44,531 nucleotides of DNA, taken from the IMG/VR virus record IMGVR_UViG_3300031418_000028. One strand, written 5' to 3'. The translations under genes and the position numbers were made by a program. Shown here piece after piece: positions 1,978 to 36,826 of this stretch; positions within the stretch are counted from its first letter, which is position 1, and each line of letters opens with the position of its first letter. Under the pieces are notes generated by a model. The model made no database searches, was not told the origin of the DNA, and saw only the letters and a program-made list of their open reading frames with translations. The DNA comes from a virus.

Positions 1978-4422
1978 ATGGACTTAGAGCAGCGTCAGAT
2001 TAAGTTAGAGCAAGAGTACAGCACGCAGGGTGTGCTGGATGCATTTGCGCACTGGGAGAAAGAGCGCGATGCGGGACGCATGGCGGACACGCACATCGGA
2101 CGTACTTTAACTATTCGCCTGTACAAGCTGGTGCAGACCGAATTGGAAACAATCTGTACTGCTGGTACTCGTGGCGTTGGTGGTAAGTACCGCAACTTAA
2201 TCAAGGACGTGGGGTATGACCGCGCAGCTGTGGTCGCTATCCGCACCATCCTGCGACTGATTACCATGAAGCTGCGTGCTGACCGCACTGCACCTATCGT
2301 GCAGGATTTTGTCAGTGCTGCCGGTGAAATCATGAACATGGAGTACATGCACTTCTGCCTGCGTACCGCAGCGCCGGGGTACATGGCGCGTGTTGACCAG
2401 TACATGCAGGACAATAACACACGCTCAATCAATCACCGTAAGCGTACGCTGGTTGCCAGTGCCAATCGCATTGAAGGCGTAGAGCCTGACGACGTGCGTT
2501 GGGGCGTATCCGAGCAGAACGGCGTAGGCGGTATTCTACTGACTGCTATCCTGAATGCCGGTATTGCAGAGGCGCGTCACCTGCCTAAGAGTGGTGGACA
2601 GAGCTGGGTTGCTCTGTACCCAACGCCTGAAGTTGAGGCTAAGCTGCAAGAGCTGCTTCATAACATGCGTGCATTCATGAAGCAGCCACCAATGCTTGTC
2701 ACTCCTAAAGCACACACCCGCGATACATTATTCGGCAATGCATCGTACCTGACAGAGGAATTAGCTGCCTCTGCCCGTACTATCCACCTGCGTACCCGTA
2801 ACCGGCGCGACCTGAAAGATTGGATTCGTGCTAATATCTCGGACAGAGTATTACGTGCCGCTAATAAGGCGCAGAGTCAGCCATACCGTATCAACAAAGA
2901 ATTGGTGGGTATGCTGCGTGATATCTACAGCTCTGGTGTGTACAACGGTATCGCTGGTATCCCCAGCAACACCCCTATTACACCGCCGCCATACCCAATG
3001 TCAGAGGGTTGGGACAAGGAAGACCCGGAGTGTATTGAAGTGCATTCCGCATGGAAAGCTCTGGCTAAGGATGCGTACCGTGCCGAAGTTCAGCGCAAGG
3101 GGCATGTGCTCCAGTTCTCACTTATCACGAAGTATCTCAACACGTTCGGCGATGATACCCTGTACTTCCCCACGTACTTCGACTGGCGGGGCCGTTTGTA
3201 CTTCCGCTCCAGCATTAACCCGCAGGGCGCTGATTTCGTTAAGGCTGCTCTGGAGTTTGCGGATAAGAAGCCACTGGGCAAGCGCGGTCTGTACTGGCTC
3301 AAGGCCCATGTAGCCACTTGTTATGGATTCGACAAAGCGAACTTCGACACTCGCGCTGTGTGGACAGATACCCACATGGACCTCATCAGAGACGCTGTAA
3401 CGCACCACGTTGACTCCGAGTTCTTCCGGGGTGCAGATGCACACTGGTGCTTCTACGTCGCCGCTAAGGAGCTTGTACAGGCCTTAGATTCGGGTTCCCC
3501 AGAGACTTGGGAAACAGGTATTGCAGTAGCTATGGATGCAACATGCTCTGGTCTGCAACACTTGTCAGCTGTAATGCGTGACCCAATCGGAGGTATGTTC
3601 ACTAACCTGATGCCTAACAACGGTGTCGAGAAGGAGGATATCTACGCCGGTGTAGCGGCGCTTGCTGTCGTGAACATCCAAAAGGATAAGGAGAACCCAG
3701 AGCAGGCGCTGTTCTGGACTACGCACGGCATCCCGCGTAGCATGGCGAAGCGTCCGGTGATGACGTACACTTACGGCGGTACGCTCATGAGTTGCACAGA
3801 GTACGTGTACGTTGACATGCAGGACCGGGCACTACCGGGTATCGACAACTACAGCCCGTTCAAACTCGCTGCGTATGCCTCCAAGCATCTGCGTAAGGGT
3901 GTTGAGCAGACTGTACCTGCATCAGCCGAGTGTATGCGCTTCCTGCGCGATATAGCAAGTCGGATGCCGGTTACAGAGCCTCTGCGCTGGATTACACCTG
4001 CTGGATTCCCGGTAGTGCAGCACTACGCAGAAGAGACCTCCAGCGTCATCCGTCTGGATGCGTTGGGCATCACTGTAACTATGCGCCGCTTCGATGAGAG
4101 CCGGTTGCAGCGTAGCAAGTGTGTTAACGGTATCTCTCCGAACTTCACGCACGGGTTGGACTCCAGTCACCTCACTACGGTTATTGATGAGTCCGAGAGC
4201 AGTATCCTGCCAATTCATGATTCCTTTGGTACGTACCCAAGTGATGTGGATGCTATGCACGTAGTGCTTCGCAGGACGTTCTGTGACATGTATACCCAGC
4301 ACACACCATTGCAGAGTCTGGTGCAGTACGCCCAACCGTTCATTGAGGAAGAGATTGAGCTGCCAGCGGTCGGTAAGCTTGACATCTCTAAGGTGAAAGA
4401 CAGTCTATTCTTCATGTGTTAA
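1978..4422 (+). CDS. T7-type single-subunit DNA-dependent RNA polymerase (814 aa)
   Basis: MDATCSGLQH matches T7 DGSCSGIQH. RSMAKRPVMTYTYGGT matches T7 RSVTKRSVMTLAYGS. PIHDSFGT matches T7 HDSFGT. An SD gaggaa lies upstream. Confidence 0.97.
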   Translation: MDLEQRQIKLEQEYSTQGVLDAFAHWEKERDAGRMADTHIGRTLTIRLYKLVQTELETICTAGTRGVGGKYRNLIKDVGYDRAAVVAIRTILRLITMKLRADRTAPIVQDFVSAAGEIMNMEYMHFCLRTAAPGYMARVDQYMQDNNTRSINHRKRTLVASANRIEGVEPDDVRWGVSEQNGVGGILLTAILNAGIAEARHLPKSGGQSWVALYPTPEVEAKLQELLHNMRAFMKQPPMLVTPKAHTRDTLFGNASYLTEELAASARTIHLRTRNRRDLKDWIRANISDRVLRAANKAQSQPYRINKELVGMLRDIYSSGVYNGIAGIPSNTPITPPPYPMSEGWDKEDPECIEVHSAWKALAKDAYRAEVQRKGHVLQFSLITKYLNTFGDDTLYFPTYFDWRGRLYFRSSINPQGADFVKAALEFADKKPLGKRGLYWLKAHVATCYGFDKANFDTRAVWTDTHMDLIRDAVTHHVDSEFFRGADAHWCFYVAAKELVQALDSGSPETWETGIAVAMDATCSGLQHLSAVMRDPIGGMFTNLMPNNGVEKEDIYAGVAALAVVNIQKDKENPEQALFWTTHGIPRSMAKRPVMTYTYGGTLMSCTEYVYVDMQDRALPGIDNYSPFKLAAYASKHLRKGVEQTVPASAECMRFLRDIASRMPVTEPLRWITPAGFPVVQHYAEETSSVIRLDALGITVTMRRFDESRLQRSKCVNGISPNFTHGLDSSHLTTVIDESESSILPIHDSFGTYPSDVDAMHVVLRRTFCDMYTQHTPLQSLVQYAQPFIEEEIELPAVGKLDISKVKDSLFFMC

Positions 4423-27106: not shown

Positions 27107-27178
27107 TAGTCTGCTTTTAAATGAACACTAGGTAAATCATATACTTACCAATTTCTTTGAATATTCTTTTAAAAGTGC

Positions 27179-27207
27179 TTGCGTTCCTAGTTTGGTTAGT
27201 CCAATAT
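27179..27207 (+). promoter_or_regulatory. Candidate host sigma70 early promoter P1
   Basis: TTGCGT-N17-CAATAT, preceded by the AT-rich atttctttgaatattcttttaaaag (UP-element-like). Confidence 0.45.
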
Positions 27208-27285
27208 GTATCTCAACGGGGCAGCACTGAGAAGTGTAGCCGGTTGGATAGGTAGATGGGTTGACGGTCTGATTCAACAAGTGTG

Positions 27286-27315
27286 TTGACAGATGCTAAG
27301 AAACTAAGTTACCAT
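27286..27315 (+). promoter_or_regulatory. Candidate host sigma70 early promoter P2
   Basis: Consensus -35 TTGACA, an 18-nt spacer, then TACCAT. Confidence 0.5.
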
Positions 27316-27534: not shown

Positions 27535-27774
27535 CCAGCTTTGCGGTGACTTACTAGCTCCTTAATCGGTGCCATGATGTGAGAATCCTAGATAAGCCGG
27601 GTAGTACTCGAAAGCCCACAGCGTTAAGTCGTGAGCTGGCGCGCTGAAACCCTGCGCCATAATAGAATAGGGTTGAGCGGTGAACCACACCGTCCACGGT
27701 TGTGCAGTGGGAGACAAGGTTAAGCGTGAGTATCTCATACTGGGGTACTCACCATTAACTTTACAGGTGATAGC

Positions 27775-29835: not shown

Positions 29836-30280
29836 GTGTATCAAGAATGCTGGCGACGCCATTGCTAAGCATGGCTTTCGTCCGGTATTCCGGGAAGAGA
29901 ACAGTATCGGCGTACTCACTAAGAACCTGTTGGCGTACATGCCTTATCCGGCGGAGTACCACCAGATTTCTGAAAGTGAAGCGGATGCTGTACTCGCACG
30001 CGGCTATGCTAAAGTATTCTCTGAGGTCGTATCTTGTCAGGATGAGCAGACGCACGCTGTTGACGTGACAGTGTGTCTACTCCCGGACACGAATTTCAAT
30101 ACTGAGCAGATGCTTAGCATTAGTACCCGGCAATTGCAAGACTCACACCATGCTGTTGTGTGGTGCGTTAGAACGAACAAGTGTGCATGGCGCACAGCAT
30201 TGAATCCCGACTTCGCCTTTGAATTTGGCGATAACAACGAACTTACCTGCCTGTTATGGCTCAAGCACTGGAGTAATTAG
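29810..30280 (+). CDS. Hypothetical early protein (156 aa)
   Basis: SD ggaggtg before the ATG. Confidence 0.65.
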   Translation: MNGLTPVLECIKNAGDAIAKHGFRPVFREENSIGVLTKNLLAYMPYPAEYHQISESEADAVLARGYAKVFSEVVSCQDEQTHAVDVTVCLLPDTNFNTEQMLSISTRQLQDSHHAVVWCVRTNKCAWRTALNPDFAFEFGDNNELTCLLWLKHWSN

Positions 30281-30281
30281 A

Positions 30282-31949
30282 ATGTTTGATATCATTGAAC
30301 CACAAGAGAACTCTGTTGAAGGTTTCACCATGCAGATTGCAGATGAAACCCGCCGTGCACTGTCAGAAATGCTCCCAGCGCCAGTGGAGCAGGAAAATAA
30401 AACCCCTACCGCACCAGCAAAAGAGGAAATCAAGGCGGCCCGTGATAGTGGTAAGGCAGTATTTGCCGCCGCACTATCTGCAATTACTCCTACCATGGTA
30501 ATTGAGGCAGGAGTACACTTGCGACGCAGCTTCGACTTGTCTATTGGCGAGTTAGAGCCGCACATCAAGCTGGTGGGTGCGCTGAACTCAGCAACGCGAG
30601 AGGTTGCTCGCGGGGGTGTATCTAACCGTCCGTACGTACTAGACGGTATTTTCAATGCGGCTAAGGCGCACATGTTCCAACAGGGCATTAAGTTTGATAC
30701 CCCACAAAAAGTAAATCTGCTGGTGGGTATGGGTTCCGCACCACGCGCGACAGCACACCCCACGGATGTCGCAAATTCAGTGCTGTCACCGCAGGGTAGA
30801 AGTGCCGGTTTCCTGTACAATATGCGCGAAATTACAGAAGACGCATTTGAAGGCTACCGGTATGTGCGTTATGCTGAAGGCTGTCTATTCGCTTTAGAGG
30901 GCGTGCATTCTACAGAGGCGGATACAGCCATGTTTCACGGCTTTGTTGGGGTGGATAACCTCACGCAATTACGCTGGCAGAATCTGCGTATGGGTGTGGC
31001 AGTAAAGCAGGCCACAGGTTCCGATGAGGAGGCACGCCGTGCGGCTGACCTCTTCCGTGATGTGAAATCTTACACGTTCAAGCTTTACCCGAATGATGTA
31101 GCGTTCGGCCCGGTGTATGTTGACTTCGATGATGATACTAAATCGAGTGGGCTTGGCTCGTGCATGAGTGGTGACGATTGCAGTAACGTCCCATACGGCG
31201 TACACCCATGTGACGCGTATTCATCAGCGCACTTCGGTGCCGGTGATAATGGGCTGGTTCTAGTCGTCGCATACAAGGGTGACTTAGCCGTAGGGCGCGG
31301 CATACTGAATGTACAGAACAAGCAGGTCGTGCGGTGGTATGGTAACTACAGGGCGTCAGTGCAGTTCTTTGCAGCTACCGGCACGGAGGATGAATCTGCT
31401 GCGCTTGAAGGCTCGTGGTTGGCGCTGATTGAACAGGATGGTAGATTCGCACACCCGTACATCGACAGCGATTCTGAGTATGGCAGCCTTGATAGAGACG
31501 CTGGGCGTGTAGTACTGTTTGAGGGAACGTTTGACCTCCAGAACACGAGGGGCTACAGCCATGCAGTAGAAACGCGTATATGCTGTTACGATGATGAATG
31601 GTATCCTGAATCGGAAATGACATACCAAGAGCACACGGACACTTGGATTGCTGACCGTAACATCCGACGCGCATACACCTGTGCTATTACGGGTGAGCAT
31701 CTTCATCGGTACAGTATGCACAAGGGTACTGTAGACGGTGATGTTGTATGGGTGGCAGACGGCATCGACCCAGAAGATTTCGGCTATCAGCGTCTGTGTG
31801 GTGACATCGGTTGGACTAATGATTTAAGCCAGTACACATACGATGACGTCTCCGAGCGCTGGTACACAAACAGCGATTACGAAGAACTTATGGAAGCACG
31901 AGAAGAGGAAGGGCAGAATGACGAAGATTCAAACGCTAACGCAGCCTGA
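30282..31949 (+). CDS. Large orphan early protein (555 aa), acidic C-terminal tail
   Basis: The ATG at 30282 has ggag upstream, one nt after the upstream stop. No catalytic motif recognised. Cys/His cluster CMSGDDCSNVPYGVHPCDAYSSAH. The tail is EELMEAREEEGQNDEDSNANAA. Confidence 0.7.
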   Translation: MFDIIEPQENSVEGFTMQIADETRRALSEMLPAPVEQENKTPTAPAKEEIKAARDSGKAVFAAALSAITPTMVIEAGVHLRRSFDLSIGELEPHIKLVGALNSATREVARGGVSNRPYVLDGIFNAAKAHMFQQGIKFDTPQKVNLLVGMGSAPRATAHPTDVANSVLSPQGRSAGFLYNMREITEDAFEGYRYVRYAEGCLFALEGVHSTEADTAMFHGFVGVDNLTQLRWQNLRMGVAVKQATGSDEEARRAADLFRDVKSYTFKLYPNDVAFGPVYVDFDDDTKSSGLGSCMSGDDCSNVPYGVHPCDAYSSAHFGAGDNGLVLVVAYKGDLAVGRGILNVQNKQVVRWYGNYRASVQFFAATGTEDESAALEGSWLALIEQDGRFAHPYIDSDSEYGSLDRDAGRVVLFEGTFDLQNTRGYSHAVETRICCYDDEWYPESEMTYQEHTDTWIADRNIRRAYTCAITGEHLHRYSMHKGTVDGDVVWVADGIDPEDFGYQRLCGDIGWTNDLSQYTYDDVSERWYTNSDYEELMEAREEEGQNDEDSNANAA

Positions 31950-32916
31950 GATGGCTGAGATTAAAGTTCTACTGGCGCTACTGCGTCTGCGCCGTCCTCA
32001 TGGCGGTATGAATGAGACACTGGCAGGTAAAGTTGTTGAGCAGGTTGTAGGTGAGATTGCTAACAACGCCGACTTTGATGTATTCTTAGAGCAGGACCGC
32101 CACGGTAACTTGATTGTGGCCGTCGGTGAAGACTCTGGTGTAGTGTTCACAGCACATCTTGACACAGTGCACCGGACGGATGGCATCAATAATATCACAC
32201 TGGTTAAGCCATCCGGTAATCAACGCTGGCTTGTAGCAGACGATAGTATTACCGGTATGCCTGATGTGCTGGGTGCAGATGATGCAGCGGGTGTGTTCCT
32301 TCTCACTGAGTTAATCAAGGCCGGGATGCACGGGAAGTACTTGTTCTTTGTTGGTGAAGAGGTTGGCGGTGTGGGTTCAAGCGCGTTCATTCAGGACAAT
32401 CCGACGTTCAGTGCGAACATGGCGATAGCGTTCGACCGCCGTGGGTACAGCGACGTAATCACACATCAGGGCTTCGGTGCCCGTACTGCATCGGATGAGT
32501 TCGGTACAGCACTGGCTAACGCACTGAACAAGCAGAACCCCGACTTCGAGTACAAGGCATCCAACCGGGGCGTGTACACCGATACGAAGGAGTTCGCCGG
32601 TCTTGTACCTGAGTGTACTAACATCTCCGTCGGGTACTTCAATGAGCACACGAACCGCGAGGAGCTGGACCTGAATCATCTGCTGGCGCTGCGTGATGCT
32701 GTACTTGCAATTGAATGGGCGAAGCTGCCGGTTATGCGTGTTCCTGAGCCGGACATTGACTGGTTCAGTACATACCGGGACTTCACCGACGATGCACCGG
32801 TTGATTACATTGGGCTGGGTGAGCGTGCTGCCCGCCTACTGGATAAACACTTTGCGGAGTTGCCTACTGAGGTAACTAAGTTCCTGCGTGATGTAGAGGA
32901 GATGTACGATGCCTAA
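31918..32916 (+). CDS. M28-family (clan MH) zinc aminopeptidase-like protein (332 aa)
   Basis: A complete metal-ligand series: FTAHLDTVH, GADDAAGV, GEEVGGVGS, YTDT, GYFNEHTNREELD. The ATG with gaggaaggg SD lies 32 nt inside the upstream gene. Confidence 0.75.
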   Translation: MTKIQTLTQPEMAEIKVLLALLRLRRPHGGMNETLAGKVVEQVVGEIANNADFDVFLEQDRHGNLIVAVGEDSGVVFTAHLDTVHRTDGINNITLVKPSGNQRWLVADDSITGMPDVLGADDAAGVFLLTELIKAGMHGKYLFFVGEEVGGVGSSAFIQDNPTFSANMAIAFDRRGYSDVITHQGFGARTASDEFGTALANALNKQNPDFEYKASNRGVYTDTKEFAGLVPECTNISVGYFNEHTNREELDLNHLLALRDAVLAIEWAKLPVMRVPEPDIDWFSTYRDFTDDAPVDYIGLGERAARLLDKHFAELPTEVTKFLRDVEEMYDA

Positions 32917-33180: not shown

Positions 33181-33478
33181 TATTATCAGTGATAAAACAC
33201 TGCTTGAGGCAGTGCAGGAGCGTGGTATTGTAGGCGCAAAGGAATTCACAACCCGTTGCACTGGCAAGACAACAGCCACCGCCTTGCACTACATCTCAGA
33301 GGTTATGAGTAAGGCGAGCGAGTACGAGGGTGAGCCTGTCGTTGTGTACACTAGTGACAGTGAGGTGTACGCAGCATGTAAGAAGGTTGTAATCAAACTC
33401 GGGTTTATAGGTTTTACATTCGATAACAACCTTTATGGTGGCGGTTATGTTAAGTACTGCCCATTCGAAGGTACATAA
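33173..33478 (+). CDS. Hypothetical protein (101 aa)
   Basis: ORF linked by overlaps to both neighbours. No function assigned. Confidence 0.55.
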   Translation: MRNIISDKTLLEAVQERGIVGAKEFTTRCTGKTTATALHYISEVMSKASEYEGEPVVVYTSDSEVYAACKKVVIKLGFIGFTFDNNLYGGGYVKYCPFEGT

Positions 33479-34299
33479 TGCGTGAGCGCCTTCCACCTGA
33501 TGAATGGCTAGGCGCTGCCAAATCCCTGAGCATAGGGCAGAAGCGCCGCATTAATCACGGTTGTGGTAGCACTGCGGCCTGTGATGTGTTCAATCAAGCA
33601 GAGTGCTGGTCTGCTTATTGCCACCGTTGTCATCTACCCGGCTGGGTTCCGAAGGAGCACCAGCAACTGAGGTCGCTTGTACAGGAAGACCCCACGCGAG
33701 TGTCGCCTGTACCTGCGGATGCTTTACATCTGTCCCAAACGAGCACGTTCTTGCAACGTAGGATTTGGGATTTACTAATTCAGAAGGGTTGCCCACCGGG
33801 CGTCATACCCGAGGAGTTTGTATGGTACAGTCAAAGTACGAACCGGATATTACTGCGGCAGGGATTGCGCGCATTAGGGCGAGCGTTGAGCGCTGCCCAA
33901 CAACCGAAGTGGATGGCGTATGGCAACTGGACGAGCCAGCCCCGCCTGTTCTGGACGAGATTCCGGGATGCAGGGCCAATGGTACTTGTCGAAGATGCTT
34001 TGAGCGCCTTCAAGGTGGCGAAAGCGGTCGAGGTTTATGCGCCGACAAGCTCATTCTCGGTCGTAGCGACACTCGGAACGGTCGTAACGTCCGCATCCTT
34101 GAAGTACGTTCAGGGTCGTGATGTGTTGTGTATGTATGACCCAGATAAGGCGGGTCGTGACGGCTTAGCGGGGTTACGTAAGCGCCTAAACGTTTTTGGC
34201 GGTGTAGTAATAGATGCAATACCCAAGCAAGGGGACCCGAAAGATAACACACTGGAGAACTTGTATGGACTTATTACAGCGGCTGCGGGCCGCATCTGA
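33478..34299 (+). CDS. DNA primase (zinc-finger + TOPRIM), 273 aa
   Basis: Cys/His cluster CGSTAACDVFNQAECWSAYCHRCH. TOPRIM motifs VLVEDALSAFK and MYDPDKAGRDG. Confidence 0.85.
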   Translation: MRERLPPDEWLGAAKSLSIGQKRRINHGCGSTAACDVFNQAECWSAYCHRCHLPGWVPKEHQQLRSLVQEDPTRVSPVPADALHLSQTSTFLQRRIWDLLIQKGCPPGVIPEEFVWYSQSTNRILLRQGLRALGRALSAAQQPKWMAYGNWTSQPRLFWTRFRDAGPMVLVEDALSAFKVAKAVEVYAPTSSFSVVATLGTVVTSASLKYVQGRDVLCMYDPDKAGRDGLAGLRKRLNVFGGVVIDAIPKQGDPKDNTLENLYGLITAAAGRI

Positions 34300-34747
34300 A
34301 AGAGTTTATGTAGACCCATACAGTCAAACTGGACTGTCGTGGAAAGTAGACGGGCCGAGAACAAAAGCAGGCTCACCTGCGTTCATATCAAAGGACAAGG
34401 GTGGGTACTACACGGGCACCATTAATAAGGTGCGTTGGAAAGCACACCGCCTAGTGTTTGCCCTTGAGCATGGCTACCTGCCTGAGTTCATTGACCATAT
34501 TGATGGGGACCCAAGCAATAACAAAGTGGATAATCTAAGGGAGTGTACTCGAACAACTAACAACCAAAATCATGTTAGGGTTGATGTTCGACAGAGGCGC
34601 AAGACCGGCGGGTGGCAAGCCCGTATCCAAGCAAACGGAAAACGTTTAAGTCTGGGAACGTTTGCTACAAAAGAGTTGGCGGAGGCTGCCTATTATGCAG
34701 CAAAAGTGAAGCTACATCCAACAGCGCCGGGGAGGTGTTATGTTTAA
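34265..34747 (+). CDS. Free-standing HNH homing endonuclease with an AP2-like domain (paralog of 4685-5158)
   Basis: IDHIDGDPSNNKVDNLR. The C-terminus KVKLHPTAPGRCYV compares with KRTEHPTAPERCYG in the paralog. The start lies 35 nt inside the primase gene. Confidence 0.85.
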   Translation: MDLLQRLRAASERVYVDPYSQTGLSWKVDGPRTKAGSPAFISKDKGGYYTGTINKVRWKAHRLVFALEHGYLPEFIDHIDGDPSNNKVDNLRECTRTTNNQNHVRVDVRQRRKTGGWQARIQANGKRLSLGTFATKELAEAAYYAAKVKLHPTAPGRCYV

Positions 34748-35563: not shown

Positions 35564-36826
35564 TTGGACAGACTAATACTTAGCGTACTACGTGACCGCA
35601 GCAAGTACCGGCAGTTACGCGGCGCAGTGCCTGATGATTTAGTCGGGCAGGAAACTGTGTCTATGCTGGCTTGGTTTAATGTGTACTTCGAGGCCAATCC
35701 AGACAGCAACTACGTGGATACAGAAGCGCTACGTAGCCTGTTCAATCTGCGTGTTGGTCAGAGCATTGATGCGAACCAGCGTGCCATGATGAGCGTGCTG
35801 TTCCGCAAGCTGGATGAGCCAGTGGATGAGCACGCCGCCGCAGGTATCCAGCAGCAATTGTACGAGCGTGACTTCAAGGGCAAGGCAGCAGCACTCATCA
35901 ACCGGTATGATGCAGGTGAGGAGGTTGACCTAACGTTTGAGTTGAACCGCCTAGCACATGAGAACATGCGGCGTATGTCTGCATCATCCCCGGCCAGCTA
36001 TATCGATGCACCAATTGAGGAAATCCTTGCAGACTTCGAAGGAGACCGTGGACTGAAGCTGCCAACAGAACTCCTGAGAAGCTCTGTGGGAGGACTTCAG
36101 GGTGGGGATAGTATAGCGGTAGCGGGTCGCCCCGATAAGGGCAAGACGAGCCTCCTAGCAGCGTGTATGGTGAACTTCGCACCGCAGCTAGATGCATTCG
36201 GTTGGTCAGGTCGTCCGATGCTGTGGCTGAACAACGAAGGCTCCGGTCGTCGTATCATCCCACGAATCTATCAGGCTGCGTTGAAGTGTACGTTCGCTGA
36301 GATGGTGGGCATGAGCAATGACAAGACGCTCACGCAGAAGTACAACGCGGCAATGCGGAATGAGCGTATTCTTGTGAAGGATATGCACGGAGCTACACTG
36401 GGCCAGCTTGAGCAGGTTATTGAAGAGCTGAACCCATGTGTGGTAGTGTTCGATATGCTGGCTAACTTCCGTATGCCCAGCGCAGGTGGCGGGAACAAGA
36501 CAGATGCACTTGAGCAGATGTGGCAAGAAGTCCGCGAGATGGCTGTGCGGCATGACTTTGTGGCTATGCCTACAATTCAGATATCCGCCGACGGTGATGA
36601 CCAACTCTACCCACCCTACTCGGCCTTAAAAGATAGCCGTACTGGCGTACAGGGTGCTGTAGATGTGATACTCATGATGGGTGCCCTTAACTCCATAGAG
36701 ATGGACTCAGTACGTGGTTTTAGTACACCTAAGAACAAACGTCAAATGGTGGGTAAGCCCAGCAACACGCCCGGTCAGGTATTCTTCGACAAAGCGAGGT
36801 GCTTATTTGAAGATGGAACTCCTTGA
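35564..36826 (+). CDS. DnaB/gp4-type replicative DNA helicase (420 aa)
   Basis: Walker A GRPDKGKTS and Walker B VVVFDML. The apparent TTG start lies directly after the upstream TAA, with ggagga upstream. The start codon is uncertain. Confidence 0.85.
   Translation: MDRLILSVLRDRSKYRQLRGAVPDDLVGQETVSMLAWFNVYFEANPDSNYVDTEALRSLFNLRVGQSIDANQRAMMSVLFRKLDEPVDEHAAAGIQQQLYERDFKGKAAALINRYDAGEEVDLTFELNRLAHENMRRMSASSPASYIDAPIEEILADFEGDRGLKLPTELLRSSVGGLQGGDSIAVAGRPDKGKTSLLAACMVNFAPQLDAFGWSGRPMLWLNNEGSGRRIIPRIYQAALKCTFAEMVGMSNDKTLTQKYNAAMRNERILVKDMHGATLGQLEQVIEELNPCVVVFDMLANFRMPSAGGGNKTDALEQMWQEVREMAVRHDFVAMPTIQISADGDDQLYPPYSALKDSRTGVQGAVDVILMMGALNSIEMDSVRGFSTPKNKRQMVGKPSNTPGQVFFDKARCLFEDGTP

What the first reader, a model, noticed from the sequence alone, without database searches (positions are those of the whole stretch)
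30282..32916. Translationally coupled early pair: 555-aa orphan protein plus an intact M28-type zinc peptidase
This pair is the largest coding investment of the early region, about 2.6 kb of about 6 kb. The 555-aa protein has no motif I can place. It carries a Cys/His cluster and a strongly acidic tail. The downstream gene starts 32 nt inside it, behind a good SD. That gene retains the full M28 metal-ligand series (HxD, GADD, EE, D, H), so it looks catalytically competent. A cytoplasmic aminopeptidase-like enzyme is not part of the canonical T7, SP6 or phiKMV core gene sets as I know them. Its early position suggests host takeover or counter-defence, for example proteolytic inactivation or trimming of a host factor, or processing of a peptide signal. 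The large orphan could be a partner, substrate adaptor or regulator.
Basis: partly seen in the sequence, partly recalled or inferred. Interest (0 to 1): 0.65.

Follow-up and report, generated by a model that had tools for sequence, protein, structure and literature searches.

The report
Conserved phage peptidase and partner gene pair
The two genes are real and are a new copy of a tightly linked pair (a large protein of unknown function plus a zinc exopeptidase) that many phages carry just before their DNA-replication genes; nobody has shown what the pair does.

Summary
Gene A (30282-31949, 555 aa) and gene B (31918-32916, 332 aa) overlap by 32 nt, and a GAGGAAGGG Shine-Dalgarno sequence precedes B.

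B matches Pfam Peptidase_M28 above the curated cut-off. All metal and catalytic residues are invariant across its family.

A is not an orphan. It belongs to PHROG 13313, and B to PHROG 4191. The same pair is KP34 gp10/gp11, PhiM1 gp09/gp10 and Vibrio KF2 gp16/gp17. Two papers list both genes as conserved, with A's function unknown and B only a putative peptidase.

In 80 viral contigs fetched with the peptidase alone, every locus with enough upstream DNA (73 complete, 2 cut at the contig end) has an A relative immediately upstream. Junctions lie between -17 and +33 nt in 64 of 66 cases. No third gene is shared.

A has no Pfam or PDB sequence match. Its core model has no significant Foldseek hit (best E 0.042). 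However, the top 50 hits are nearly all GNAT-fold aminoacyl-tRNA transferases (ATE1, Leu/Phe-transferase, FemX, MprF) or acetyltransferases.

43% of A relatives end in -AA, which resembles the end of the ssrA tag.

Best reading: a co-translated two-protein module acting on peptide or protein termini. The mechanism is unproven.

The parts
30270..30273 (+). Shine-Dalgarno sequence (GGAG) of gene A, 8 nt before the ATG
   Evidence: Sequence read.
30282..31949 (+). Gene A, 555 aa. It is the partner protein (PHROG 13313; homologue of PhiM1 gp09, distant homologue of KP34 gp10).
30282..30887 (+). A residues 1-202: helical N-terminal domain. It varies between clades, apart from a conserved N-terminal motif (A20, T23, R24, L27).
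   Evidence: AF2 model; alignment A1. Distant relatives share only the core.
30888..31541 (+). A residues 203-420: conserved alpha/beta core with GNAT-like strand/helix order. Superfamily-invariant residues are S293-C294-M295, H308-P309, Y313, R339, Y353-G354 and P392-Y393-x-D395.
   Evidence: Alignment A2; domain model with pLDDT 88; Foldseek top 50 dominated by GNAT-fold transferases, none significant.
31158..31208 (+). Codons of the SCM...HP motif (S293 to P309).
31542..31871 (+). A residues 421-530: beta-hairpin-rich region. In distant relatives it carries CxxC...CxxC zinc-ribbon modules. Here it is degenerate (CC433-434, C467) and internally repeated.
31872..31949 (+). A residues 531-555 plus stop: acidic C-terminal helix and tail ending in -NAA.
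31905..31913 (+). Shine-Dalgarno sequence of gene B (GAGGAAGGG). It lies inside A's tail codons (E-E-G).
31918..32916 (+). Gene B, 332 aa. It is an M28-type (clan MH) binuclear metallo-exopeptidase (PHROG 4191). An alternative start is at 31951.
32155..32649 (+). Catalytic core of B. It runs from H80 (32155) through D121 (32278), E147-E148 (32356-32361) and D173 (32434) to H244 (32647). There is no lid or dimerisation domain between the EE motif and the last His.
   Evidence: Alignments to PepT-like 3gb0 and 3rza; invariant columns.

Best explanation
A and B form a dedicated two-protein module, made together from one mRNA by coupled translation. It acts in the host cytoplasm before or during phage DNA replication.

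B is an active two-metal exopeptidase or amidohydrolase of clan MH. It has a single M28-type domain.

A is B's obligate partner. It has four parts: a variable helical N-domain, a conserved core that most resembles the GNAT fold of aminoacyl-tRNA-dependent transferases, zinc-ribbon-derived hairpins, and an acidic tail ending in -AA.

The mechanism I think most likely is remodelling of peptide or protein termini. B trims terminal residues. A either transfers an acyl or aminoacyl group onto the exposed amine or presents the substrate to B. This would change the stability or activity of host or phage proteins.

Shown:
- the gene coupling
- the intact ligand set of B
- the family-wide conservation of the pair

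Inferred:
- physical complex formation
- the GNAT-like fold of A
- any transferase activity
- the identity of the substrate
For: Synteny:
- In 80 IMG/VR loci found with B alone, all 73 loci with at least about 1.3 kb upstream carry a complete A-family ORF directly upstream on the same strand. Two more carry a copy cut by the contig end. The 5 loci without A have less than 650 nt upstream.
- The same arrangement is seen in PhiM1, KP34 and Vibrio KF2.
- It is also seen in 3 of 3 contigs looked up from distant A relatives.
- Only A and B are shared by all 81 loci.

Junctions: 64 of 66 distinct junctions lie between -17 and +33 nt, and 16 are ATGA overlaps.

B:
- PF04389 scores above its cut-off.
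- 28 of 32 relatives match M28.
- H80, D121, E147, E148, D173 and H244 are invariant and align to the PepT ligands.

A:
- Nine invariant or near-invariant polar residues suggest an active or binding site.
- The domain model has pLDDT 88 and the order b1-a1-a2-b2-b3-b4-a3-b5-b6.
- Foldseek's top 50 PDB hits are almost all ATE1, Leu/Phe-tRNA-protein transferase (probability 0.60, 130 columns), FemX, the MprF C-domain and GNAT acetyltransferases.
- Weaker hits of the same kind came from the full-length model and from BFVD.
Against: - No Foldseek hit for A is significant (best E 0.042; TM 0.16-0.29).
- A has no Pfam, NCBIfam or PDB sequence match.
- hhalign of the A profile against E. coli Aat gives probability 0.2%.
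- The acetyl-CoA loop motif is only half present (R351-x-x-G354-x-Y).
- No catalytic residue of a known transferase could be mapped.
- More distant peptidases of the family occur without a detectable A. Examples are Thermus P23-45, Bacillus Chewbecca and about 20 bacterial contigs. B can therefore work alone.
- No experiment on any member was found.
Confidence: 0.4

Rival explanations
1. A is not an enzyme. It is an adaptor, regulator or pro-inhibitor of B. Its core binds the target, and its acidic -AA tail has one of two roles. It may dock in B's active site as a pseudo-substrate or processed substrate. Alternatively it may act as an ssrA-like degron, so that ClpXP limits A's lifetime or degrades cargo bound to A.
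For: - 71 of 166 family representatives end in -AA, against 1.15 expected.
- 24 of 86 distinct AA tails read ALAA, AVAA or LAA, like the ends of ssrA tags.
- The last 20 residues are 27% acidic, against 16% overall.
- The strict synteny and coupling fit a stoichiometric complex.
- No transferase signature is detectable by sequence.
Against: - Nine invariant polar residues in a folded core look more like an active site than a docking surface.
- Many family members end in E, GE or EN, not AA.
- Part of the tail conservation is explained at the DNA level, because its codons supply B's Shine-Dalgarno sequence.
- The window tail has N, not a non-polar residue, at position -3.
Confidence: 0.25
2. 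The pair acts on a small molecule rather than on proteins. For example, it might hydrolyse or re-acylate an amino-acid- or peptide-containing host metabolite or immune signal. It would then be a counter-defence or metabolic takeover module.
For: - Clan MH includes many deacylases and dipeptidases acting on small amides (established knowledge).
- B's invariant R26, R174 and Q184 could bind a carboxylate (inference).
- GNAT-fold enzymes often act on small amines.
- The pair sits among early genes of unknown function.
Against: - There is no similarity to any PADLOC defence or anti-defence model.
- No defence-linked variability was seen. The pair is a stable core gene pair rather than an accessory gene.
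- A's large size, zinc-ribbon modules and variable N-domain suggest a macromolecular partner.
Confidence: 0.15
3. The pair serves phage DNA replication or transcription. For example, it might mature or remodel a replication protein. That would explain its position directly upstream of the primase and helicase genes.
For: In the window, PhiM1, KP34 and KF2 the pair is followed within about 0.6 kb by the primase and helicase genes. 17 of 81 loci share that primase.
Against: In the other 64 loci the neighbours differ, and no replication gene is shared. No nucleic-acid enzyme motif was found in A or B.
Confidence: 0.08

Closest known systems
KP34 gp10 + gp11 (Drulisvirus), PhiM1 gp09 + gp10 (Phimunavirus) and Vibrio KF2 gp16 + gp17 / VP93 gp6 + peptidase (Maculvirus)
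   Same: The gene order is the same: a large protein, then the peptidase abutting or overlapping it, then small ORFs, primase and helicase. The PHROGs match (13313/6980 and 4191). The window proteins are 36% (A) and 49% (B) identical to the Pectobacterium phage copies.
   Different: There is no nucleotide-level match to any GenBank phage. The KP34 and KF2 partners are longer (655-711 aa) and share only the core with A. None of them has a known function.
Clan MH metallopeptidases: M28 aminopeptidases, PepT-like M20B tripeptidases (PDB 3gb0, 3rza), M42 TET aminopeptidase (2cf4)
   Same: The metal and catalytic motifs HxD, GADD, GEE, D and H are all present, with spacing matching PepT (EE to D is 25 residues, against 23 in 3gb0)..
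   Different: There is no lid or dimerisation domain (about 75 residues between EE and the last His region, against about 190 in PepT). The family has extra invariant motifs (RPH, FDRR, THQ, YTDT, PECTN) and a helical C-terminal extension. It is encoded in an obligate pair.
Aminoacyl-tRNA-protein transferases of the N-degron pathways (E. coli Aat/LFTR, ATE1, Bpt) and other GNAT-fold aminoacyl transferases (FemX, MprF C-domain)
   Same: These are the best, though non-significant, structural neighbours of A's core, and the strand/helix order is similar. Like them, A sits next to an enzyme that acts on protein termini, which would make functional sense.
   Different: There is no sequence or profile similarity. 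Catalytic residues could not be mapped. A has an SCM...HP motif, zinc-ribbon modules and an acidic AA tail that those enzymes lack. No known member is paired with an M28 peptidase, to my knowledge.
ssrA degradation tag (ClpX C-motif 1)
   Same: A ends in -AA-COOH, preceded by an acidic or polar stretch. The window tail NDEDSNANAA can be compared with E. coli ANDENYALAA. Many relatives end in ALAA or AVAA.
   Different: The tail is genetically encoded, not added by tmRNA. The window has N at -3, where ssrA has L. Many relatives have other endings. Degradation has not been tested.

Membership tests
Peptidase family M28 / clan MH (gene B) | Profile match above the curated threshold | tested here: met
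   PF04389 scores 29.7 bits against a cut-off of 21.3. 28 of 32 relatives match M28, 10 match M20 and 5 match M42.
Peptidase family M28 / clan MH (gene B) | Two-metal ligand set His, bridging Asp, Glu, Asp/Glu and His, plus the catalytic Glu | tested here: met
   H80, D121, E148, D173, H244 and E147 are invariant in A3. They align to the corresponding PepT-like residues of 3gb0 and 3rza.
Peptidase family M28 / clan MH (gene B) | Single catalytic domain without a lid (M28), as opposed to catalytic plus lid domains (M20, M42) | tested here: met
   About 75 residues lie between the EE motif and the C-terminal His motif, against about 190 in PepT.
Peptidase family M28 / clan MH (gene B) | Metal-dependent exopeptidase activity | not testable with these tools
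   This needs an enzyme assay.
GNAT-fold aminoacyl-tRNA transferases (Aat PF03588, ATE PF04376/PF04377, FemAB, DUF2156) (gene A) | Sequence or profile similarity | tested here: not met
   A has no Pfam family at E <= 1. There was none for 10 + 22 distant relatives either. hhalign against E. coli Aat gives probability 0.2%.
GNAT-fold aminoacyl-tRNA transferases (Aat PF03588, ATE PF04376/PF04377, FemAB, DUF2156) (gene A) | GNAT fold (b1-a1-a2-b2-b3-b4-a3-b5-a4-b6) | tested here: inconclusive
   The predicted secondary-structure order fits, except for a missing a4. Foldseek's top 50 hits are nearly all of this superfamily, but the best E is 0.042 and TM is 0.16-0.29.
GNAT-fold aminoacyl-tRNA transferases (Aat PF03588, ATE PF04376/PF04377, FemAB, DUF2156) (gene A) | Known catalytic residues (for example Aat D186/Q188) | not testable with these tools
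   No model coordinates or structural superposition were available.
GNAT acetyltransferases (gene A) | Acetyl-CoA loop Q/R-x-x-G-x-G/A after strand b4 | tested here: not met
   Only R351-x-x-G354 is present, and the last position is Y or variable.
ssrA-like ClpX degron (C-motif 1) (tail of A) | C-terminal Ala-Ala-COOH | tested here: met
   The window protein ends ...NANAA. 71 of 166 relatives end in AA.
ssrA-like ClpX degron (C-motif 1) (tail of A) | Non-polar residue at position -3, and ClpXP-dependent turnover | tested here: not met
   The window has N at -3. Only 24 of 86 AA tails have L, I, V, M or F there. Turnover cannot be tested here.
Known defence or anti-defence protein families | Match to a PADLOC model | tested here: not met
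   There were no hits for A or B at E <= 1.
KP34 gp10-gp11 / PhiM1 gp09-gp10 module | Both families present, same order and strand, abutting | tested here: met

The most novel reading that the evidence does not exclude
The pair could be a phage-encoded writer of protein N-termini. In this reading the M28 exopeptidase trims host (or phage) proteins to expose an acceptor residue. The GNAT-like partner then appends an amino acid from aminoacyl-tRNA. This would create or erase N-degrons, so that host Clp proteases destroy or spare chosen proteins. The partner's own ssrA-like -AA tail would tie the module to ClpXP. No such viral system has been described in the papers I could search.
Probability: 0.12. 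Interest if true: 0.85.

Novelty: new member of a known kind. Interest (0 to 1): 0.55.

Why it matters
The pair occupies about 2.6 kb of a 44.5-kb genome. It is kept, always together, in hundreds of phages. These include the KP34-like Klebsiella phages and the Pectobacterium phages, which are studied as antibacterial agents. No function has been assigned to it.

This work adds four points:
- The pair is a strict two-gene unit.
- The peptidase can only be an exo-acting enzyme.
- The partner has an enzyme-like conserved site and a possible aminoacyl-transferase fold.
- The partner often ends like an ssrA tag.

Together these turn an annotation of 'hypothetical protein + peptidase' into a few direct experiments. 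If the terminus-remodelling idea is right, it would be a new way for a virus to control host protein stability. It would also bear on an open question: which peptidases create bacterial N-degrons.

Tried and rejected
- Megablast of the region against GenBank phages found no match.
- Pfam, NCBIfam, PADLOC and PDB sequence or profile searches for A found nothing meaningful. The adiponectin single-chain trimer hit at E 5.6e-6 is taken as spurious: it is a short match to a repeated construct.
- Pfam scans of 32 distant A relatives gave only scattered sub-threshold hits (C1_1, Tad6 at E 0.005, Cupin_2). All fall in the Cys-rich hairpins and none recurs.
- Foldseek of full-length A against PDB was dominated by chance helical matches (MutS, SltB3, Nurr1). 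I therefore modelled the core alone.
- The third homologue search, run with a core-fragment alignment, returned only 5 proteins.
- The search for related loci failed with the A alignments (no conserved 7-mer). It found nothing with three single distant A proteins. The A-to-B direction of co-occurrence therefore rests (51 versus 51 Pectobacterium records).
- I looked for a third conserved gene and found none. Six recurrent flank ORFs have no Pfam match.
- Rejected: a secreted or cell-wall peptidase. B has no signal peptide, and its hydrophobic N-terminal stretch is a conserved part of the fold.
- Rejected: a virion maturation protease. The pair is far from the structural genes, and clan MH enzymes are not endopeptidases.
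- Rejected: 'DNA mimic'. This is one GenBank annotation of a KP34-type partner. It rests only on the acidic tail.
- Literature searches found no functional study. The Iyer et al. 2009 amidoligase paper could not be read.
Full report
**1. What is in the sequence**

The window is a circular permutation of a complete phage genome of about 44.5 kb. All long ORFs lie on the + strand. The single-subunit RNA polymerase (1978-4422) is 68% identical to that of the Pectobacterium Phimunavirus phages. The finding's region has no nucleotide-level match in GenBank phages.

The finding's coordinates are right.
- Gene A starts at ATG 30282, behind GGAG at 30270-30273 and one base after the stop of the preceding ORF. 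It runs to 31949 (555 aa).
- Gene B starts at ATG 31918, 8 nt after GAGGA within GAGGAAGGG (31905-31913), 32 nt inside A. It ends at 32916 (332 aa).
- A second ATG at 31951 has a poor Shine-Dalgarno sequence. Close relatives keep the longer N-terminus.
- The Cys/His cluster and the acidic tail are present.
- Sigma-70-like promoters at 27116 and 27286 mark the start of the early region. The primase gene begins at 33478. The pair therefore takes about 2.6 of about 6.3 kb.

**2. The peptidase (B)**

- B matches Pfam Peptidase_M28 above the gathering score (29.7 versus 21.3 bits). It matches PHROG 4191 'peptidase' at E 1e-88.
- Of 32 diverse relatives, 28 match M28, 10 match M20 and 5 match M42.
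- The nearest solved sequences are PepT-like tripeptidases (3gb0, 3rza), TET1 and PepD.
- H80-x-D82, D121-D122, E147-E148, D173 and H244 are invariant in the family alignment. They align with the PepT ligand positions.
- The lid domain of M20 and M42 enzymes is missing. The architecture is therefore M28-like.
- The family adds its own invariant motifs: RPH, FDRR, THQ, YTDT and PECTN.
- Clan MH enzymes are exopeptidases or small-amide hydrolases (established knowledge). Internal cleavage of a host factor is therefore not the expected chemistry.

**3. The partner (A) is not an orphan**

- A matches PHROG 13313 (E 2.7e-115) and, through its core only, PHROG 6980, the KP34 gp10 type.
- tblastn finds it in 131 GenBank phages: 73 Klebsiella, 51 Pectobacterium, plus Dickeya, Pseudomonas and Escherichia.
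- An exhaustive profile search finds 46 clusters at E < 1e-30 and 425 at E < 1e-3.
- Distant members share only residues about 275-480.
- Superfamily-invariant or near-invariant residues are Y279, S293-C294-M295, H308-P309, Y313, R339, Y353-G354, P392-Y393-x-D395 and T422-x-G424.
- Downstream of the core, distant members carry CxxC...CxxC zinc-ribbon modules. In the window protein these are degenerate and internally repeated.

**4. The two genes are one unit**

- PhiM1 gp09/gp10, KP34 gp10/gp11 and Vibrio KF2 gp16/gp17 have the same order and abut or overlap.
- Two comparative papers list both genes among the conserved genes of their groups. A is listed as hypothetical and B only as a putative peptidase (PMC6115819, PMC4411677).
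- I fetched 80 IMG/VR loci with the peptidase alignment alone. I then searched their six-frame ORFs with an HMM of A's core.
  - All 73 loci with about 1.3 kb or more upstream have a complete A relative directly upstream on the same strand.
  - Two have a copy truncated by the contig end.
  - The five without A have less than 650 nt upstream.
- Contig lengths range from 43-45 kb to 60-85 kb, so several phage groups are involved.
- Three of three contigs looked up from distant A relatives also have the peptidase next door.
- All-against-all clustering of flank ORFs shows that only A and B are common to all 81 loci. The next most frequent flanking cluster (outside the pair itself) is in 32.
- Of 66 distinct junctions, 64 lie between -17 and +33 nt, and 16 are ATGA overlaps.
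- The coupling is not universal at greater distance.
  - Thermus P23-45 and Bacillus Chewbecca have the peptidase alone.
  - In bacterial assemblies, 22 of 49 loci have A within the fetched flanks. It lies directly upstream in 20, about 1 kb upstream in one and about 1.7 kb downstream in one.
  - About 20 loci with more divergent peptidases have no detectable A.

**5. What A might be**

- The full-length AF2 model (pLDDT 82.5) gave no significant PDB match. It did give repeated weak hits to arginyl-tRNA-protein transferase ATE1, VipF and MprF.
- BFVD returned only uncharacterised phage proteins, plus weak acetyltransferase and amidoligase hits.
- A model of residues 203-530 alone (pLDDT 88.1) has the element order b1-a1-a2-b2-b3-b4-a3-b5-b6 of a GNAT fold.
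- The PDB search with this model again has no hit at E <= 0.001 (best 0.042). However, the top 50 are almost entirely of one superfamily:
  - ATE1
  - Leu/Phe-tRNA-protein transferase (2z3k, probability 0.60, 130 columns, rmsd 5.7 Å)
  - FemX
  - the MprF C-domain/DUF2156
  - GNAT acetyltransferases
- Sequence-level tests fail. A has no Pfam match. hhalign against E. coli Aat gives probability 0.2%.
- I therefore treat 'GNAT-like, closest to aminoacyl-tRNA transferases' as a lead with roughly even odds, not as membership.

**6. The tail**

- 71 of 166 family representatives end in -AA, where 1.15 are expected from composition.
- Among 86 distinct AA tails, 24 read ALAA, AVAA or LAA, like ssrA tags. 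Most others read [E/D]AA.
- The last 20 residues are enriched in acidic residues (27% versus 16%).
- Part of this is explained at the DNA level. The tail codons supply B's Shine-Dalgarno sequence, as in GAGGAGTAAnnnATG and GAGGCAGCATAATG. ALAA-type endings cannot be explained that way.
- The window tail, NDEDSNANAA, loosely resembles E. coli ANDENYALAA. I did not test whether that exceeds chance.

**7. Explanation and rivals**

- Best reading (confidence 0.4): a co-translated two-protein module acting on peptide or protein termini. B trims. A either transfers an acyl or aminoacyl group or presents the substrate.
- Rival 1 (0.25): A is a non-catalytic adaptor or regulator whose tail plugs B or recruits ClpXP.
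- Rival 2 (0.15): the pair acts on a small-molecule target, possibly as counter-defence.
- Rival 3 (0.08): the pair has a replication-linked role.
- The most novel reading not excluded is a viral N-degron writer, at about 0.12.

**8. Novelty**

The window's pair is a divergent new member (36% and 49% identity to the nearest GenBank copies) of a catalogued but uncharacterised module. I found no functional study of any member. The strict pairing, the exo-only chemistry, the enzyme-like conserved site, the possible fold and the ssrA-like tails make it a well-defined experimental target.

Noticed in passing
window 31872-31949; family-wide in P0001-P0288 and L001-L139: 43% of partner-protein relatives end in -AA (71 of 166, 1.15 expected). 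24 of 86 distinct AA tails read ALAA, AVAA or LAA, like ssrA tags. The window tail NDEDSNANAA loosely resembles E. coli ANDENYALAA.
   Followed up: partly
window 31905-31920; junctions in L001-L089: The last codons of gene A double as the Shine-Dalgarno sequence of gene B in many loci (for example GAGGAGTAAnnnATG and GAAGGAGAATG). Part of the acidic C-terminal conservation may therefore be a nucleotide-level constraint.
   Followed up: partly
window 34214-34747: An HNH endonuclease ORF (PHROG 99, E 9e-46) sits between the primase (33478-34299, which it overlaps by 86 nt) and the helicase (35564-36826). It is probably a homing endonuclease insertion.
   Followed up: no
LR756503.1 (uncultured phage, 735 kb), around 440994-441656: This very large phage record has five separate places matching the peptidase (hit H173).
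   Followed up: no
L091-L139 (bacterial genome contigs): The pair also occurs in assemblies of Mesorhizobium, Aureimonas, Novosphingobium, Sphingomonas, Pasteurella testudinis and Pseudomonas fluorescens C2. These are probably prophages or co-binned phage contigs. About 20 more divergent peptidases (Chromatiaceae, Methylococcaceae, Fimbriimonadales) have no detectable partner within 4 kb.
   Followed up: partly
window 27116-27315 and 27726-27752: Two sigma-70-like promoter matches (one TTGACA-18-TACCAT, 10 of 12) and a 12-bp hairpin lie just before the first early ORFs. This is probably the left end of the genome's early region. The count of promoter-like sites is not above the shuffle expectation.
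   Followed up: no
L008 4681-5745 and 322-798; L009 167-643: In marine metagenome contigs the pair is flanked by a DUF7448 protein directly upstream, and in L008 also by a DUF932 protein about 1.6 kb downstream.
   Followed up: no
window 31542-31871 (A residues 421-530): The hairpin region shows weak internal repeats. The core HMM positions of about 150-208 match again about 90 residues further on in many relatives. In distant relatives the region holds intact CxxC...CxxC zinc ribbons. One relative gives a sub-threshold Pfam Tad6 hit (E 0.005).
   Followed up: partly
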